Shown: in pieces, positions 28,323-36,957 of the stretch
Layout: each line of letters starts with the position of its first letter
Numbering within the stretch: the stretch's first letter is position 1
Virus record (IMG/VR): IMGVR_UViG_3300045988_079557
From: a virus
Reading direction: 5' to 3' (one strand)
Length of the DNA: 40,305 nucleotides
Translations under genes and position numbers: made by a program
Notes under the pieces: generated by a model
Databases searched by the model: none
Seen by the model: the letters and a program-made list of their open reading frames with translations, nothing else
Told to the model about the DNA's origin: nothing

Positions 28323-28700
28323 TCATTCGTCCTCCTCATACGGACCTAGCCCCGACAGCACATCGAACATATGCTTGATAAACTCTATCAGTTCTTCACG
28401 GCTCTTCTTTTCAAATTTCGCATAGGGTCTGATGAATTTTTCCATTTCACGCATAACACGCACGCTGTCATTGAATGCCGCTATCACGTTCTCGTTAGGT
28501 TCGCTCTGCTTTATCTGCTTGTCTAGTTTCTGTGTCAATGCACTTTTGGCTTTCGCTGCCTGCTCTGCAGGAATGTTGTTCAGCGTAGCGGTTTTGTATA
28601 GATAGTACATAGCCAGCCAGTATATTTCATCAAAGATGTTGCTATCGTTCGGCAACTCTTCACCACGATATGCCAACTTGTCGATTTCTGACCTTTCCAT
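28323..28700 (-). CDS. Hypothetical protein
   Basis: ORF track. I moved the start to the ATG (MERSEIDKL), 8 nt after AAGGAG. Confidence 0.5.
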   Translation of the reverse strand: MERSEIDKLAYRGEELPNDSNIFDEIYWLAMYYLYKTATLNNIPAEQAAKAKSALTQKLDKQIKQSEPNENVIAAFNDSVRVMREMEKFIRPYAKFEKKSREELIEFIKHMFDVLSGLGPYEEDE

Positions 28701-28724
28701 GTTTTTCACTCCTTTTTTTTGATT

Positions 28725-30563
28725 TTAAAATGGCGGTAAATCTTCGCCTTCGGCCGTGTCAACATCTTTGAAACACCCGTAGATTTTGCCCCATTCTGCA
28801 TTGTTACAGCCGATACGTTTACAAATCTGGCTGTAGGCGACCTTGATGTTGTCTGCCACGTTGCCTGTCAATCGGTTTTTTACAATGGCGATTTTGCTTT
28901 GAAAATCGTCCTTGTCGTCGTCGTTATTTTTGCTATATGTTAAAACCAAATCAACCCTATTTGTGATATCACCCGAACCGCTGACACTATCTGCATTCAG
29001 TTCAATGCCGTCTGCGGTTTTGCGTGGGTGCGCTATCAGTATGATAGCTACGTTATATTTGACCGCTATGTATTTCACGGCGTTTACAAAATCGGACTGT
29101 GCCCGATACAGTTCTTTGCTGAGATCAACGTCCAGTGCCGTCATGAGATTGTCAATCAGTATCAGTTTGACGTTAAATCTGCGGATAGCCGTTTCAATCG
29201 TACCCAGCAATGATATCTTGCCGTCACGTTTCGCATTATCGCCGTCAAGCTTGATTTCAGCCGTCACAGCCGTGTTGTCAAAAATGTATGCCCTATCATC
29301 ATACCAGCGGTTGATTTTATCGACCACATCATCAGGAATGTCATAGGTCTCGTCACCATATTCGTTGACCGAACGTATAACATTTTGTTTTCCTGCAATC
29401 TGCAAATCTAGCCAGCGTTTGAAATGATAGTCAGGCAATTCACCCGAATAAACGAAAATCGAATACGGATTGCCGTCTAGGTCTGATTGGTCTAGTGCAT
29501 TTGCGATTATTTGTGACGCTAACGTTGATTTACCCTCGCCACGCTTGCCCGTGATAACCACTACCTGCCCCATATAGATACCGCCGATATATCGGTCAAC
29601 ATCGTATATGCCTGTTTTGATATGCTCCTGCTTATCCAGATTGACCGCTTTGACCTGCGACAGTTTTTTGACAGCCGTGACAGGTATTTCTTCGGCATTG
29701 TTCACGGCATCGCATATCGCTTTACAGCCGTATTTCTGCAGGATTGCGTTTGCGTCCTTTTCACCCAAATAATCTTGTGCCCTGACAACTTTCAATTTTT
29801 TGTGTGGAAATGATGTTGTAAATTGGTCAACCAGTGTTATGTGTCCGTGTTCATGATCTCCGAAAATTACAATTTCGTCGAAGCTGTCCACAAAATCATA
29901 ACAGAACGGCACCCAGGTCTTGTTGCTCTGACCGCCTGGCACTGATACTGCATTATCTATCTGACAATCTGCCACCGACAGACTATCTATCTGCCCCTCC
30001 GTGACTATCAGCCTATCATGCTTTTCTGTACATCGGTTCATGCCGAACAGTATCGGTTTTGTGTTCTTTTCAAACCACTCTTTTTGATTGTCTCTGCCTT
30101 TGACAAAATCTGTCTTGCGATACTTGACTGACGTCAGCACGTTGTTTTCATCAAAAAACGGAAACATCAGCAGATTGTCACGCTTATTGCCAACAGTGAT
30201 GTTGTATTTTCGTGTGGTGATTTCCGAAATTCCCCTTGACCGCAGGTATTCAACCGCCTTATCACGGGTGACTATCTTCACTGGTGGTAATGTGCGGTAT
30301 TTCTTTTTCTGTTCATCGTCAAATTCCAATGGATAGTTGAAATCTCTTGCAAGCTGTACGAAATGACCTGTCATGCCACAACTGCTACGAAAACACTTGA
30401 ATGCTCCCGTGTCAAGATTTACAGAAAATGTATCTTTGTCATGACCGCCCCCATTGCAGTACGGACAGTATTTGAAATACAGTTCACGCCCCTTGCGGTG
30501 CGTTTCTGCATTCAGTGCCACAGCCAGACCAACCACATCATCATCACGCATTGTATATCCCAT
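28725..30563 (-). CDS. Bifunctional primase-helicase (zinc finger, Toprim and DnaB/RecA-like ATPase)
   Basis: Zinc finger 'CPYCNGGGHDKDTFSVNLDTGAFKCFRSSC'. Toprim 'LIVTEGQIDSLSV ... IFGDHEHGH'. Walker A 'ITGKRGEGKST'. Confidence 0.85.
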   Translation of the reverse strand: MGYTMRDDDVVGLAVALNAETHRKGRELYFKYCPYCNGGGHDKDTFSVNLDTGAFKCFRSSCGMTGHFVQLARDFNYPLEFDDEQKKKYRTLPPVKIVTRDKAVEYLRSRGISEITTRKYNITVGNKRDNLLMFPFFDENNVLTSVKYRKTDFVKGRDNQKEWFEKNTKPILFGMNRCTEKHDRLIVTEGQIDSLSVADCQIDNAVSVPGGQSNKTWVPFCYDFVDSFDEIVIFGDHEHGHITLVDQFTTSFPHKKLKVVRAQDYLGEKDANAILQKYGCKAICDAVNNAEEIPVTAVKKLSQVKAVNLDKQEHIKTGIYDVDRYIGGIYMGQVVVITGKRGEGKSTLASQIIANALDQSDLDGNPYSIFVYSGELPDYHFKRWLDLQIAGKQNVIRSVNEYGDETYDIPDDVVDKINRWYDDRAYIFDNTAVTAEIKLDGDNAKRDGKISLLGTIETAIRRFNVKLILIDNLMTALDVDLSKELYRAQSDFVNAVKYIAVKYNVAIILIAHPRKTADGIELNADSVSGSGDITNRVDLVLTYSKNNDDDKDDFQSKIAIVKNRLTGNVADNIKVAYSQICKRIGCNNAEWGKIYGCFKDVDTAEGEDLPPF

Positions 30564-30578
30564 GTTTTTTCACCTCGT

Positions 30579-31064
30579 TCAAAAATCTGTCCTGCCTGGA
30601 TTGTCCGTCCGCCTGCCGTTTGTGTGCGCTGCGGGAGCAGCATATATTTCTTTATCTTTGTTATACTTTGTTGCTTTCTTTTCATTGGTGCCCTTAGCCT
30701 GCCCCTTGCCTGCCCTTAGCCTGCCCTTAGCCTGCCCGACACTCTGCCGCTTGTCTTGATACTTGTCATAGCAAACCACGGTATAAACGCTATATCGTGG
30801 ATATTTTGAGACTGCCACTTCCCCTGTCTCAATTAGATGTTTTATTGCTGTCCTTACGCTTTTTACTGACAAACCCGTGTTTTTGGCAATGCTTGGATAA
30901 CTTGTAGCTATCTGTCCACGCTGAATTGTGATGTTTTCAAAATCATGCGGTTCATAATTTGCCTGCAAAATCAGATATAAAAACACTACCAATGTGTTTG
31001 GTTCACGAAACCAACGCCATGTGCATATTTTTCGTTCTAGTGTTATAAAACCATTTTCCAGCAT
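30579..31064 (-). CDS. Putative replisome organizer / winged-helix replication initiator-like protein
   Basis: 161 aa. 'IATSYPSIAKNTGLSVKSVRTAIKHLIETGEV' looks like a wHTH. It lies directly upstream of the primase-helicase and contains tandem iterons. Confidence 0.5.
   Translation of the reverse strand: MLENGFITLERKICTWRWFREPNTLVVFLYLILQANYEPHDFENITIQRGQIATSYPSIAKNTGLSVKSVRTAIKHLIETGEVAVSKYPRYSVYTVVCYDKYQDKRQSVGQAKGRLRAGKGQAKGTNEKKATKYNKDKEIYAAPAAHTNGRRTDNPGRTDF
30690..30733. repeat. Four tandem 11-bp iterons (gcccttagcct / gccccttgcct) next to an AT-rich stretch; candidate ori
   Basis: The units are 30690-30700, 30701-30711, 30712-30722 and 30723-30733. The flanking AT-rich sequence is 'catatatttctttatctttgttatactttgttgctttcttttc' (30650-30690). 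Confidence 0.6.
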
Positions 31065-33778: not shown

Positions 33779-34078
33779 TTAGTCACTTTGCTCACCTGCT
33801 AGCTTTGTGAGTTGTTTCAACGCCTGATAGCTCTTGCCGACGTTATACGCCTTGAGCTGGTCAGCTGTGAACATTTGGCTGATGTAGTAATCAAAATCGC
33901 TCAGAGTTTCTTGCTCACTGTTAAAATTTACGACACTAGCTATGTAGGTGGCGAAAAGTTTCGCACGACTTTCCTGCCCAGAGAGGCAGTCTGGTGGGCA
34001 ATCGTCTATGCCTGTTCTAACTCCTGTGCAAAATTTTGCTACTCTTACGATTTCCTCGTCCGTGAATTTCTCATCCAT
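33779..34078 (-). CDS. Hypothetical protein
   Basis: ORF track 33779..34087 opens with GTG. I prefer the ATG at 34078 (MDEKF). Confidence 0.5.
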   Translation of the reverse strand: MDEKFTDEEIVRVAKFCTGVRTGIDDCPPDCLSGQESRAKLFATYIASVVNFNSEQETLSDFDYYISQMFTADQLKAYNVGKSYQALKQLTKLAGEQSD

Positions 34079-34481
34079 TGTTGTCACCGCCGTTTCCTAT
34101 CCTCGTAAGCTCCTCTTTCACCTCAAGCATTGCCCGATATGACTGTCCCATGTCAAAGGCTTTCTGTTCTTCATCTTCCATACGTTCGTAAATGTCCAGT
34201 ATCAGCTCGCAAGCCTTGTAAGCCTTTTGAGCTTCTTGACAAATCTGCGTTTTTACGCTATCATCAATGTGTATGTTATCGGTATCTTTTGATACCTCCG
34301 AGCTTGTGCCTGTTGCCGCAGGTGCAGGCTCATTTTCTTTGAGGTAATGCATAACAGCTTTGTTGATCTCTGACTCTGCGCTGCATGCCCATTCCCCTTG
34401 CTCGTCAAATGGACATCCTTCACAGTTATGCGTCATGTAGCAGCATTCAAATGCCTTTATCGTTTCTCCTCTCGTCAGCAT
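34071..34481 (-). CDS. Hypothetical Cys-containing protein
   Basis: 'CCYMTHNCEGCPF'. I trimmed the start to MLTRGE. Confidence 0.5.
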   Translation of the reverse strand: MLTRGETIKAFECCYMTHNCEGCPFDEQGEWACSAESEINKAVMHYLKENEPAPAATGTSSEVSKDTDNIHIDDSVKTQICQEAQKAYKACELILDIYERMEDEEQKAFDMGQSYRAMLEVKEELTRIGNGGDNNG

Positions 34482-35077
34482 TCTTCTTCCTCCCATTCAA
34501 ATCGACCTTTGCCGCTGTTACGCCACTGACCGATACCTCTCAGCCTGCCGTAGTCCAGCCATTCTCTTACGGCTGTTTCCATATCGTCTTTCAGAATCTG
34601 GATTGTGAATTCAACTGTTGCTCCTGCAGGTACTGTCTCAGAATGTGCCAATGCAACACGTTCGCCTTGCGGTGTGCTTGCTCTGAGTGGCCTCTGACAC
34701 TCGCCCATGCCGCCCTTGAATTCGTATGGAATTTTTCGTTCCTCGACGAAGATAAGTCCGTCAATCTCTTTCTTGTACGCCTTGATTTTGGAACTTGCCG
34801 TGCCTGATACCTTTTTCAGAACGCCGCAAGCGTCCTTGAAGAAGCCCTTTACCTGGTAATCCCATAGAAATGGGGTACCGTCTTCCAGTGTCGGGAATAC
34901 CGTCATAGATTTTTCGACCACTTCCGCTACACCAAGTGCGGCTATCTCTTCCTCACGGCTCTTTGCGTCAGGGGCTTTCGATGCGATGTACTCATCGTGG
35001 ATTGTGGCTGTTGCGTTTGCCGTTCCCAAAATCTCTTCGGTGAACGTCAACTTTACTTTGATTTTTTTCATGCTCAT
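34475..35077 (-). CDS. Hypothetical 200-aa protein with a RAMP-like motif layout and a C-terminal glycine-rich loop
   Basis: RBS GGAGGT. The motifs in order are 'KIKVKLTFTEEILG', 'YQVKGFFKDA', 'GLIFVEE', 'SETVPAGATVEFTIQIL' and 'GIGQWRNSGKGRF' (GhGxxxxxGxG). The assignment is from memory of RAMP signatures only. Confidence 0.35.
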   Translation of the reverse strand: MSMKKIKVKLTFTEEILGTANATATIHDEYIASKAPDAKSREEEIAALGVAEVVEKSMTVFPTLEDGTPFLWDYQVKGFFKDACGVLKKVSGTASSKIKAYKKEIDGLIFVEERKIPYEFKGGMGECQRPLRASTPQGERVALAHSETVPAGATVEFTIQILKDDMETAVREWLDYGRLRGIGQWRNSGKGRFEWEEEEC

Positions 35078-35441
35078 GTCTTTTGACCTCCGTTAAACGT
35101 TAAATTTATTTTTTCTTGCTTTTCGACGCCATACTGTGCCGAACTACGCCTTTGCTAGTCACTGCAGTTCCTTTGCTAATCGCTGCTATGCCCTTGCGTC
35201 TCTATGCTTCTCAATGCCTTAGCTAATCAATGCCATTTCTTTGCATGGCACCGCCAATCTGCACCCTGCTATGCCTTTGCCTCTCGTTGCGTGTCAAAAC
35301 TTCGCCTCGCCTTTGCTTGTCGGAACTTAGCTTTGCCTTTGCTTATCTAAACGGTGCTGTGCATACCTAGCCCTAGCTATGCAAAACGTTGCCAGCCTTT
35401 GTATGGCCATGCCGTTGCTTAACAACCCTGAACCGTACTTT
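35078..35441. repeat. Non-coding block 1 of decayed ~21-bp tandem repeats (plus-strand unit ~GCCTTTGCTAATCRCTGCTAT)
   Basis: The motif cores gcctttgct, tcctttgct, gcccttgcg and gccttagct start at about 35148, 35169, 35190 and 35216. More degenerate copies extend to about 35420. No ORF of 60 aa or more exists in any frame. Confidence 0.75.
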
Positions 35442-35648
35442 TTAGAAATCATCTGAAGAAAAACGTTCCAGAAGCTTTTGATGATTGACATTATACAAAT
35501 CAGTCAAGCTAAGCATTGCAGACGTATAACGTTCGCGTAATTCATTCATATCATCAGTAACGCACATACGATTTATAGACCCTTCGAGCATATCAACGGA
35601 ATTCATAGTTTCCTTATGCTTTTGTGCCGTGTAAAATTTATTTTGCAT
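35442..35648 (-). CDS. Hypothetical 68-aa protein between the two repeat blocks
   Basis: ORF track. The RBS aaggggga lies 5 nt upstream. Confidence 0.55.
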   Translation of the reverse strand: MQNKFYTAQKHKETMNSVDMLEGSINRMCVTDDMNELRERYTSAMLSLTDLYNVNHQKLLERFSSDDF

Positions 35649-35901
35649 AATTATCCCCCTTTCTTTTTAGACAGAAAATATTTTTTTTCGCAGTCCTTGC
35701 GATTCATTGCTTATCAAAACTTTGCCGTTGCTTTGCCAGTCTTTGCTAGACCAATCCATGCCTCTGCCTTTCGTTGCTTATCGACGCTAGGCCGTTGCTT
35801 TGCTGTTCAAATCAACACCTTCGCACTTCGCAGTCGTTCACAGGTTCGCTTTGCCATAGCCATAGCCAATGCTATTCATAGCAAATCCGTTGCCTTGCAA
35901 T
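35649..35901. repeat. Non-coding block 2 of degenerate (G)CyTTGC-type repeats
   Basis: gtccttgcg, cattgctt, ctttgccgttgctttgcc, gtctttgct, gcctttcgttgctt, gccgttgctttgct, cgctttgcc and ccgttgccttgc are all present. No minus-strand ORF covers the block. Confidence 0.65.
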
Positions 35902-36813: not shown

Positions 36814-36842
36814 ATTATATACTCATTTTGGGCATTTGTCAA
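36814..36842 (-). promoter_or_regulatory. Early (PR-like) consensus promoter
   Basis: The minus strand reads TTGACA (36842-36837), 17 nt, TATAAT (36819-36814). The inverted repeat gtactc-gtttt-gagtac (36791-36807) lies in the leader. Confidence 0.75.
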
Positions 36843-36928: not shown

Positions 36929-36957
36929 TTGACAAATTCCCATAATGGGTATATAAT
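36929..36957 (+). promoter_or_regulatory. cI-like repressor (PRM/PL-like) consensus promoter
   Basis: TTGACA (36929-36934), 17 nt, TATAAT (36952-36957), followed by the RBS AGGAGGTG. Confidence 0.75.

What the first reader, a model, noticed from the sequence alone, without database searches (positions are those of the whole stretch)
35078..35901. Two non-coding blocks of decayed ~21-bp periodic repeats embedded in the early operon
The prophage is otherwise tightly packed, with many ATGA or 4-8 nt overlaps. Yet 364 bp (35078-35441) and 253 bp (35649-35901) carry no ORF on the transcribed strand. Both blocks are filled with degenerate copies of a motif that reads GCCTTTGCT on the plus strand and AGCAAAGGC on the transcribed strand.

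The first four copies are phased at about 21 bp, or two helical turns (starts about 35148, 35169, 35190, 35216). A second recurring element, 'gctatgcc', marks the unit borders. The consensus unit is roughly GCCTTTGCTAATCRCTGCTAT.

The same core (GCCCTTAGCC / GCCCCTTGCC) forms the four perfect-phase 11-bp iterons inside the replisome-organizer gene at 30690-30733. The arrays could therefore be extra binding sites for that protein, acting as an origin, handcuffing site or titration site. Alternatively they could be a structured or processed non-coding RNA, since they lie inside the PR-like transcript. I cannot tell which from the sequence alone.
Basis: partly seen in the sequence, partly recalled or inferred. 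Interest (0 to 1): 0.62.

Follow-up and report, generated by a model that had tools for sequence, protein, structure and literature searches.

The report
Phage VIPR guide-RNA repeat arrays
The two "non-coding repeat blocks" are arrays of about 100 five-base units that sit just upstream of a small Cas7-like gene. Together they form a VIPR system, a CRISPR-like, phage-encoded RNA-guided DNA-silencing system first described in 2026 preprints, so they are not replication iterons.

Summary
The repeats are real but were mis-measured. The basic period is 5 nt, not 21 bp.

**The arrays.** On the transcribed (minus) strand both blocks are runs of G-phased pentamers, n-G-(C/A)-N-N.
- G occupies its phase in 91-96% of units.
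- A specific hexamer, GCAANG, recurs every 5-7 units.
- Period-5.2 Fourier power is 17-19 in the blocks, against a window median of 0.68.
- There is no 3-nt periodicity and no RNA structure beyond shuffles.

**The neighbouring gene.** The gene directly downstream (34475-35077, 200 aa) has no Pfam, PHROG or PDB sequence hit.
- Its model folds as a Cas7/Csm3-type RAMP: the top 50 Foldseek PDB hits are nearly all Cas7-family backbone subunits.
- It aligns full-length with the Vipr protein of phage SUSP1 (hhalign E about 9e-5, probability about 60%).

**Conservation.** Nearly every relative examined, down to 45% identity, keeps such an array on the same strand beside the gene, while the other neighbouring genes differ.

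**Reading.** This matches VIPR systems (bioRxiv 10.64898/2026.04.26.720920 and .720927). The consensus is non-canonical, and the arrays are long, tail-less and punctuated by hexamers.

**Limits.** No targets were found in the small databases I could scan.

The iteron/origin reading is not supported. This scan had already flagged the same clade on other DNA (e1-3634290, e1-3133978).

The parts
36814..36842 (-). PR-like early promoter (TTGACA-17-TATAAT) that probably drives the operon containing the arrays and vipr
   Evidence: 12/12 consensus match on the minus strand. No terminator-like site on the minus strand between here and 34400. A divergent 12/12 promoter at 36929-36957 (+) precedes the cI-like repressor gene.
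35690..35901 (-). Upstream vrRNA-like array (block 2 core): about 40-45 G-phased units, including the hexamers GCAACG x3 and GCTATG x2
   Evidence: No ORF in any minus-strand frame. Fold z-score -0.07.
35649..35689 (-). A/T-rich end of array 2 plus the ribosome-binding site of ORF68
   Evidence: Sequence read. Direct repeat D6 shows a similar A-run/T-run element at the end of array 1.
35442..35648 (-). 68-aa ORF lying inside the array. It is a variable insertion of unknown function.
   Evidence: Most close relatives lack the stretch from roughly 35707-35791 down to about 35378-35415 and have one continuous array. L002, L040, L041 and L056 keep the ORF. It is called as a gene on metagenome contigs. 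No Pfam or PHROG hit.
35125..35441 (-). Main vrRNA-like array (block 1 core): about 60-65 G-phased units with the hexamer GCAAAG x5
   Evidence: Stops in all frames. Fold z-score +0.63.
35078..35124 (-). A-rich spacer and GGAGGT ribosome-binding site of vipr
   Evidence: Sequence. GGAGGT lies 8 nt before the ATG at 35077.
34475..35077 (-). vipr: 200-aa Cas7/Csm3-like RAMP protein with G-loop GIGQWRNSGKGRF
   Evidence: AlphaFold2 model: pLDDT 77.6, pTM 0.72. Foldseek PDB: the top 50 hits are nearly all Cas7-family backbone subunits, E down to 8.6e-8, probability 1.00. BFVD top hit is annotated 'Cas system-associated RAMP superfamily protein'. hhalign to SUSP1 Vipr: E 8.4e-5 and 9.4e-5, full length.
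34071..34496 (-). 141-aa fast-evolving protein overlapping the end of vipr. It is only a candidate accessory (vap-like) gene.
   Evidence: It is always directly downstream in the close clade. It is 31-100% identical where Vipr is 96-100% identical. It has a Cys4 N-domain, an invariant linker and two alternative C-domains. No family hit. The AlphaFold2 model is poor, pLDDT 56.8. No sequence homologue was found beside vipr in distant loci.

Best explanation
The two blocks are the guide-RNA (vrRNA) repeat arrays of a VIPR system, and the 200-aa gene just downstream is its Vipr protein.

**Proposed mechanism**
1. The arrays are transcribed from the early lytic promoter as part of the operon. *Inferred: there is no terminator and no internal promoter.*
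2. Vipr protomers polymerise along the RNA, one per 5-nt unit, holding the conserved G (and C/A) and exposing the variable bases. *By analogy with the cryo-EM of the SUSP1 system.*
3. The resulting filament recognises double-stranded DNA of competing mobile elements through a gapped code and silences it. *By analogy only; no target was found here.*

**Local peculiarities**
- The unit is n-G-(C/A)-N-N rather than G-G-Y-N-N.
- The arrays are long (212 and 317 nt) and lack structured tails.
- A specific 6-nt unit, GCAANG, recurs every 5-7 units. It may be a processing or nucleation mark, or a once-per-helical-turn register adjustment. *This is a guess.*
For: **Periodicity**
- Strict pentamer periodicity is confined to the blocks.
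- As a positive control, the same scan recovers three of the four known vrRNA arrays beside the SUSP1 vipr gene. That gene's residues H17, K33, R39, R138, D177, W178 and R179 match the numbering in the cryo-EM preprint.

**The protein**
- The neighbouring protein has a RAMP/Cas7 fold.
- Profile-profile alignment to the SUSP1 Vipr clade is full-length and collinear: E 8.4e-5 and 9.4e-5, probability about 60%.
- The G-loops align: GiGQWRNSGkGRF against GvGDWRPRfGRF.
- W and R, which contact G2 and Y3 in SUSP1, are kept.
- The two residues reported to read G1 (H17, D177) are T19 and Q184 here. This fits the loss of the first G in the repeat.

**Conservation of the pair**
- Array plus gene are conserved together, on the same strand, in all but one of the 29 viral loci scanned (the exception is cut off just past the gene) and in 14 of 15 genome loci.
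- This holds down to 45% protein identity and in different phyla, while the flanking genes are unrelated.

**Constraint and lack of structure**
- The variable phases diverge less among close relatives (0.12-0.18) than synonymous sites of vipr (0.27), so they are constrained.
- There is no RNA structure and no Rfam family.

**Literature**
- VIPR is defined as Vipr RAMP plus pentamer vrRNA, mostly in phages and prophages.
- Alternative consensuses NNNGG, YNNNG and NNNNG and variable array architectures are reported.
Against:
- No target obeying the NN-x rule, or several variants of it, was found. I searched the window plus 80 related loci and ran two exact scans of viral contigs.
- Sequence homology to characterised Vipr is only moderate (probability about 60%).
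- The canonical GGY triplet, discrete roughly 100-nt vrRNAs with structured tails, and a conserved vap gene are all absent or unclear.
Confidence: 0.85

Rival explanations
1. The arrays bind the Cas7-like protein but are not guides. They would act as a cis leader that autoregulates vipr and downstream early genes, or as a decoy or sponge RNA that soaks up a rival phage's Vipr.
For: - The arrays lie in the 5' leader of vipr inside the early operon.
- No targets were found.
- The arrays are far longer than characterised vrRNAs and lack tails.
- Decoy or redirecting solo vrRNAs exist in the E. coli systems (abstract read).
Against: - In some relatives the array lies downstream of vipr (L066, L079, L082, L088), so a leader role is not general.
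- The variable positions are under constraint yet differ between lineages, as expected for sequence-specific guides.
- The databases searched for targets were tiny.
Confidence: 0.08
2. One reading: the blocks are double-stranded DNA iterons bound by the replisome organizer or another initiator (origin, handcuffing or titration site).
For: - The blocks are repetitive non-coding DNA in the early/replication region.
- Real 11-bp iterons exist in the DnaD-like gene at 30690-30733.
- The mean period of 5.15-5.2 is close to half a B-DNA turn.
Against: - There is no 21-bp or 10.5-bp power.
- Neighbouring sites 5 bp apart would face opposite sides of the helix.
- G is conserved on one strand only.
- The array always keeps the strand of the RAMP gene and follows it into phages whose replication genes are unrelated.
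- The 11-bp iterons inside the organizer gene are the more orthodox origin candidate.
Confidence: 0.03
3. The blocks are decayed coding sequence, or are translated under an altered genetic code.
For: Similar peptide-like words (SKG, AKA, QRL) appear in all three frames.
Against: - Those words appear in every frame precisely because the DNA period is 5, not 3.
- Period-3 power is about 0 in the blocks, against 11.2 in vipr.
- TAA, TAG and TGA all interrupt every frame.
Confidence: 0.01

Closest known systems
VIPR systems (Vipr + vrRNA), type II exemplars Escherichia phage SUSP1 and a Pseudomonas fulva prophage (bioRxiv 10.64898/2026.04.26.720920; 10.64898/2026.04.26.720927; 10.64898/2026.10.15.759431)
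   Same: - Small single-RRM RAMP protein with a G-loop containing W-R.
- Adjacent same-strand arrays of 5-nt units with fixed and free positions.
- Phage or prophage location.
- Unstructured repeat tract.
   Different: - The unit is n-G-(C/A)-N-N instead of G-G-Y-N-N.
- The residues that read G1 are replaced: T19 and Q184 for H17 and D177.
- The arrays are 200-800 nt and continuous, instead of roughly 100-nt vrRNAs of 9-16 repeats each capped by a pseudoknot tail.
- A GCAANG hexamer recurs every 5-7 units.
- No conserved vap gene.
- The arrays are embedded in the early lytic operon of a temperate gut phage.
- Targets are unknown.
Non-canonical VIPR arrays: YNNNG/NNNNG consensus (methods of 10.64898/2026.04.26.720920) and 21 period-5 clusters with other triplets (10.64898/2026.10.21.760802)
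   Same: Period-5 arrays whose fixed part is not GGY, co-located with a Vipr-like fold. Read in the register C-N-N-N-G, this locus fits YNNNG.
   Different: - Those reports, as far as the text held here shows, do not describe the regular hexamer punctuation or this gut clade.
- The clusters in the second preprint are said to repeat about 10 times, not 40-150.
Class 1 CRISPR backbone subunits (Csm3, Cmr4, type VII Cas7)
   Same: Best structural matches: Foldseek E 1e-7 to 1e-5, TM 0.5-0.6. They share the RAMP fold, the G-rich loop, and oligomerisation along a guide RNA.
   Different: - No CRISPR repeat-spacer array, no other cas genes and no Cas6, Cas5 or Cas10 nearby.
- RNA period is 5 nt rather than 6.
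- Sequence similarity is insignificant: PDB profile search E 0.5.
Iteron-type origins and the 11-bp repeats inside phage replisome-organizer genes
   Same: Direct repeats in the early region of a temperate phage.
   Different: Iterons are 11-22 bp units in helical phase and work as duplex DNA. Here the unit is 5 nt, is strand-specific, and is linked to a RAMP gene.

Membership tests
VIPR system | Vipr protein: small RAMP with a single RRM core, glycine-rich loop and thumb | tested here: met
   - AlphaFold2 model with pLDDT 77.6.
- The top 50 Foldseek PDB hits are nearly all Cas7-family subunits.
- G-loop GIGQWRNSGKG.
- Full-length hhalign to the SUSP1 Vipr and to its clade profile: E 8.4e-5 and 9.4e-5, probability about 60%.
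VIPR system | Tandem 5-nt repeat RNA gene(s) next to vipr on the same strand | tested here: met
   - Period-5.2 power of 17-19 only in the two blocks.
- Same arrangement in the related viral loci and in 14 of 15 genome loci.
- The method was validated on SUSP1.
VIPR system | Canonical repeat G-G-Y / N-N | tested here: not met
   - The unit is G 91-96%, then C 51-56% or A about 30%, then three weakly constrained positions.
- This fits the 'related consensus' YNNNG/NNNNG that the authors list.
- It therefore argues for a variant type rather than against membership.
VIPR system | Fixed positions conserved and guide positions variable between relatives | tested here: met
   - Information content is 1.4-1.7 bits at G against 0.06-0.28 at phases 2-4.
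- Among close relatives G differs in 6.8% of aligned columns, against 12-18% at the free phases.
VIPR system (type II architecture) | Discrete roughly 100-nt vrRNAs of 9-16 repeats, each ending in a conserved structured tail | tested here: not met
   - The arrays are continuous runs of about 40 and 60 units.
- There is no fold beyond shuffles.
- There is no ribozyme or other Rfam hit.
- GCAANG hexamers are spaced 5-7 units apart instead.
- Whether this equals the authors' 'staggered' arrays could not be judged, because the figure is not held.
VIPR system | Accessory vap gene beside vipr | tested here: inconclusive
   - A 141-aa gene overlaps the end of vipr in the close clade and evolves fast.
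- It has no family hit and only a poor model.
- Distant loci show no shared neighbour.
VIPR system | Viral or proviral location | tested here: met
   - The window is a prophage with an integrase (cluster named 'integrase'), a cI/cro-like switch and replication genes.
- A tRNA-Pro gene lies near the left end.
- The relatives are IMG/VR viral contigs.
VIPR system | vrRNA is expressed and co-purifies with Vipr | not testable with these tools
VIPR system | Natural DNA targets matching the variable bases with a 1-nt skip | tested here: inconclusive
   - No hits above shuffled guides in the window plus 80 loci (665 kb). I tried rules using phases (2,3), (3,4), (1,2), (4,5) and (2,3,4) with skips 0-2.
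- Two 22-base exact scans of viral contigs found nothing.
- No host genome was available.
Iteron-type replication origin | Direct repeats of 11-22 bp in helical phase | tested here: not met
   - Tandem Repeats Finder finds only 2.6 copies of a 21-bp unit at 69% match.
- Fourier power at 21 and 10.4 is about 0-1, against 10-19 at 5.1-5.2.
CRISPR array | Conserved 24-48-nt repeats alternating with unique spacers, with cas genes nearby | tested here: not met
   No such repeat family was found. The only Cas-like gene is the lone RAMP.

The most novel reading that the evidence does not exclude
This very abundant gut-phage clade may be a distinct VIPR architecture rather than a routine member.
- The first-G pocket is lost (T19 and Q184 in place of H17 and D177).
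- The arrays are tail-less and hundreds of nucleotides long.
- A sequence-specific GCAANG hexamer falls once every 5-7 protomers, which is about one filament turn.

The hexamer could set filament register or mark the boundaries of very short guides. Either would imply different assembly, processing or recognition rules from the published 1-nt-skip, 9-16-unit guides.
Probability: 0.3. Interest if true: 0.65.

Novelty: new member of a known kind. Interest (0 to 1): 0.42.

Why it matters
**What changes in the annotation.** A stretch read as origin-like iterons becomes the guide-RNA arrays of an RNA-guided phage-versus-phage silencing system.

**Prevalence.** The system sits in a prophage lineage that is very common in human-gut metagenomes.
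- The exact Vipr sequence is on 598 contigs.
- The family has at least 7,891 homologues in the 90% set and 1,986 clusters at 50% identity.

**Natural experiment on the VIPR code.** The clade departs from the characterised E. coli and Pseudomonas systems in three ways: a single fixed G, hexamer punctuation, and no tails.

**Possible ecological role.** If the guides target co-resident prophages or satellites, they would be a determinant of phage competition in the gut.

Tried and rejected
**Readings rejected**
- *Coding under any frame or code.* Period 5, no period 3, and all three stop codons present.
- *tRNA, Rfam RNA or ribozyme.* Nothing found in the blocks.
- *Structured RNA.* Fold z-scores are about 0.
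- *Type III toxin-antitoxin, a TRAP-like attenuator, CsrA or Hfq sponges, Spo0A boxes, rut sites.* I considered these from memory. I dropped them once the RAMP fold and the pentamer logo were clear.

**Target prediction**
- Brute-force and seeded scans of the window's arrays, and of 97 arrays from relatives, against the window plus 80 loci gave nothing above shuffles. I tried several guide-phase rules and skips 0-2.
- Hits at skip 3 (dinucleotide rules) or skip 2 (trinucleotide rule), i.e. a 5-nt step, are trivial self or homologous arrays.
- An apparent excess for 5-unit segments came from one chance site replicated across near-identical loci.
- Two exact 22-base gapped scans of viral contigs returned nothing.

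**Tools and data that were not available**
- No whole genome is held for the window.

**Other dead ends**
- The 141-aa neighbour gave too poor a model (pLDDT 56.8) to justify a fold search.
- Its exact-sequence clusters and those of Vipr carried no organism names, so the host species was not identified.

Full report
**Setting**

The window is a temperate phage integrated in a bacterial chromosome.
- Strong divergent promoters lie at 36814-36842 (-) and 36929-36957 (+). They separate a cI-like repressor gene from a minus-strand early operon.
- The early operon reads: cro-like HTH, a second HTH, two small membrane proteins, block 2, a 68-aa ORF, block 1, a 200-aa protein, then several small genes.
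- It continues with an AAA_24 ATPase, an ERCC4 nuclease, a DnaD-like organizer and a primase-helicase.
- Relatives come from human faecal metagenomes and gut Clostridia-type genomes.

**Checking the observation**

Both blocks lack an open frame on the transcribed strand. However, the same peptide-like words turned up in all three frames, which showed that the DNA period is not a multiple of three.

I anchored on GCAA[ACG]GG in the window and 12 distant loci (137 copies). G recurred at -20, -15, -10, -5, 0 and then at +6, +11, +16, +21, +26. Motif spacings were 21, 26, 31, 36 and 41, that is 5k+1.

A dynamic-programming parse gave these counts:

| Block | Units | 5-mers | 6-mers | Units starting with G |
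|---|---|---|---|---|
| 1 | 73 | 61 | 11 | 90% |
| 2 | 51 | 41 | 8 | 80% |

- A Fourier scan of the whole 40-kb window finds period-5.2 power of 17-19 only in the two blocks. The median is 0.68 and the 99th percentile is 5.0.
- The blocks have no period-3 signal. The flanking gene has power 11.2 at period 3.
- A parse scored on G alone gives the unit logo. Phase 0 is G at 91-96%. Phase 1 is C at 51-56% or A at about 30%. Phase 2 is A-biased. Phases 3-4 are free.
- The occasional 6-nt unit is sequence-specific: G-C-A-A-N-G.
- Across 36 arrays from the window and its more distant viral relatives there are 1,778 pentamers and 332 hexamers, and the mean unit length is 5.149.
- The hexamers are regularly spaced. 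Gaps of 5, 6 and 7 units dominate, and 78% of gaps fall in 4-7 units against 30% expected for random placement.

**The neighbouring gene**

- The 200-aa protein (34475-35077) has no Pfam, PHROG or PDB sequence match.
- It belongs to a very large unannotated family: at least 7,891 homologues in the 90% set and 1,986 clusters at 50% identity.
- Its AlphaFold2 model (pLDDT 77.6, pTM 0.72) matches, in nearly all of the top 50 Foldseek PDB hits, Cas7-family backbone subunits. These include type VII Cas7, Csm3, Cmr4 and Cas7-11. E-values reach 8.6e-8, probability is 1.00 and TM is about 0.55-0.6.
- The closest viral model is annotated 'Cas system-associated RAMP superfamily protein'.

**Conservation of the pair**

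- In viral contigs whose protein is only 55-71% identical, an array of 300-800 nt with the same G period lies on the same strand next to the gene.
- It is usually upstream, but sits downstream in L066 and L079.
- The same holds for 14 of 15 loci from the species-genome collection. This extends to 45-51% identity in Sedimentisphaerales and Dissulfurispiraceae bins, with the same GCAAAG and GCAACG hexamers.
- The other neighbouring genes are not shared.
- The conserved module is therefore array plus RAMP gene.

**Identification**

- bioRxiv 10.64898/2026.04.26.720920 defines VIPR. It consists of a Vipr RAMP protein plus vrRNAs of alternating GGY/NN pentamers.
  - The systems are mostly in phages and prophages.
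  - They recognise double-stranded DNA through the NN bases with one skipped target base, and they silence competing phages and satellites.
  - The paper lists seven types, alternative repeat consensuses (NNNGG, YNNNG, NNNNG), and variable array architectures including 'staggered' arrays.
- bioRxiv 10.64898/2026.04.26.720927 shows one protomer per repeat. G1 is read by H17 and D177, G2 by R138 and W178, and Y3 by R179.
- A language-model survey reports 99 period-5 clusters, of which 21 have non-canonical triplets.

I fetched phage SUSP1 (KT454805) as a control.
- Its 195-aa gene at 28474-29061 carries exactly the residues named in the cryo-EM paper.
- My periodicity scan recovers three of its four flanking GGTNN arrays.

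I then compared the two protein families.
- A profile of 48 diverse members of the family found here aligns full-length and collinearly with the SUSP1 Vipr. The result is E 8.4e-5 and probability 60.5% over 175 columns.
- It also aligns with a 32-member profile of the SUSP1 clade: E 9.4e-5 and probability 58.9% over 179 columns.
- The G-loops superpose: GiGQWRNSGkGRF against GvGDWRPRfGRF.
- W185 and R186 correspond to W178 and R179.
- The two residues that read G1 are replaced: T19 for H17 and Q184 for D177.
- This agrees with a repeat in which only one G, followed by C/A, is fixed.
- The equivalence of these residues rests on a moderate-confidence alignment, so it is an inference.

**Mechanism proposed**

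*Shown here*
- The periodic array.
- The RAMP fold.
- The conserved linkage and strand.
- The absence of coding potential and of RNA structure (fold z-scores +0.63 and -0.07).
- The placement inside the early operon without an intervening terminator.

*Inferred by analogy with the published system*
- Vipr coats the transcript, one protomer per unit.
- It sequesters the fixed G(C/A) and presents the free bases.
- The filament binds matching DNA of rival elements.

*Speculative*
- The hexamer, which creates a canonical G-G-C after an extra base, may be a nucleation or processing mark.
- Alternatively it may be a once-per-turn register correction. The published filament has five to six protomers per turn.

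**Other evolutionary observations**

- Among close relatives the free phases differ in 12-18% of aligned columns. G differs in 6.8% and synonymous sites of vipr in 27%. The free bases are therefore constrained, as expected for sequence-specific guides.
- The arrays also vary by cassette.
  - In most close relatives, roughly 300-400 nt around the 68-aa ORF is missing, and a single array of about 600 nt replaces the two blocks.
  - That missing stretch runs from about 35707-35791 down to about 35378-35415.

**What remains open**

- *Targets.* I could not find any.
  - The scans used the published NN?NN scheme and variants. They covered the window plus 80 related loci.
  - They used both the window's arrays and 97 arrays from relatives, and gave nothing above shuffled guides.
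  - Two exact gapped scans of viral contigs were also empty.
  - The host genome was not available, so this test is inconclusive rather than negative.
- *Accessory gene.* A 141-aa gene overlapping the end of vipr is a candidate.
  - It is fast-evolving, with a Cys4 N-domain, an invariant linker and two alternative C-domains.
  - It is limited to the close clade and has no usable model.

The iteron/origin idea is not supported. The 11-bp repeats inside the DnaD-like gene are a separate and more orthodox origin candidate.

**Novelty**

- The class is in print (2026 preprints), and this scan had already reached the same reading for the same clade on other DNA (e1-3634290, e1-3133978).
- This locus is therefore a new member of a known kind.
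- Its variant features deserve experimental attention: the single fixed G, the hexamer punctuation, the tail-less long arrays, and the very high prevalence in gut metagenomes.

Noticed in passing
window 30690-30733: Four tandem 11-bp repeats (GCCCTTAGCCT, one variant GCCCCTTGCCT) inside the DnaD-like replisome-organizer gene (30579-31064, minus strand). This is the classical position of a phage origin. The repeats are unrelated in period to the pentamer arrays.
   Followed up: partly
window 34071-34496 (-) and homologues in L001-L057, L097-L100: A 141-aa protein translationally coupled to vipr. It is mosaic: a variable Cys4 N-domain, an invariant linker NEPAPAATGTSSEVSKDTDNIH, and two alternative C-terminal domains. 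It is 31-100% identical among phages whose Vipr is 96-100% identical.
   Followed up: partly
window 35442-35648 (-): A 68-aa ORF with a strong ribosome-binding site sits in the middle of the array. It is present in only a minority of close relatives. The rest have one uninterrupted array, so it looks like an inserted moron of unknown function.
   Followed up: partly
window 35649-35689 and 35078-35124: Both arrays end with a similar element, GCAAG...GAAAAAA(A)TA(W)TTT, before the next gene's ribosome-binding site (direct repeat D6, 74% identity). It may be a shared array terminus or simply similar translation-initiation regions.
   Followed up: no
L093, L094, L092, L095 (genome contigs): Homologues of this gut-phage Vipr (42-53% identity) occur on contigs binned to Planctomycetota-type orders (Sedimentisphaerales, Pirellulales, Planctomycetales) and to Dissulfurispiraceae. 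L093 and L094 have clear adjacent arrays with the same GCAAAG/GCAACG hexamers, while L092 and L095 show only a weak period-5 signal. The clade is therefore far wider than gut Clostridia, unless the bins are contaminated.
   Followed up: partly
L081 (phage SUSP1, KT454805) 28474-29061: The record's Vipr has V at position 175, whereas the cryo-EM preprint names T175. All other cited residues match. This may be a strain or construct difference, or a typographical slip.
   Followed up: no
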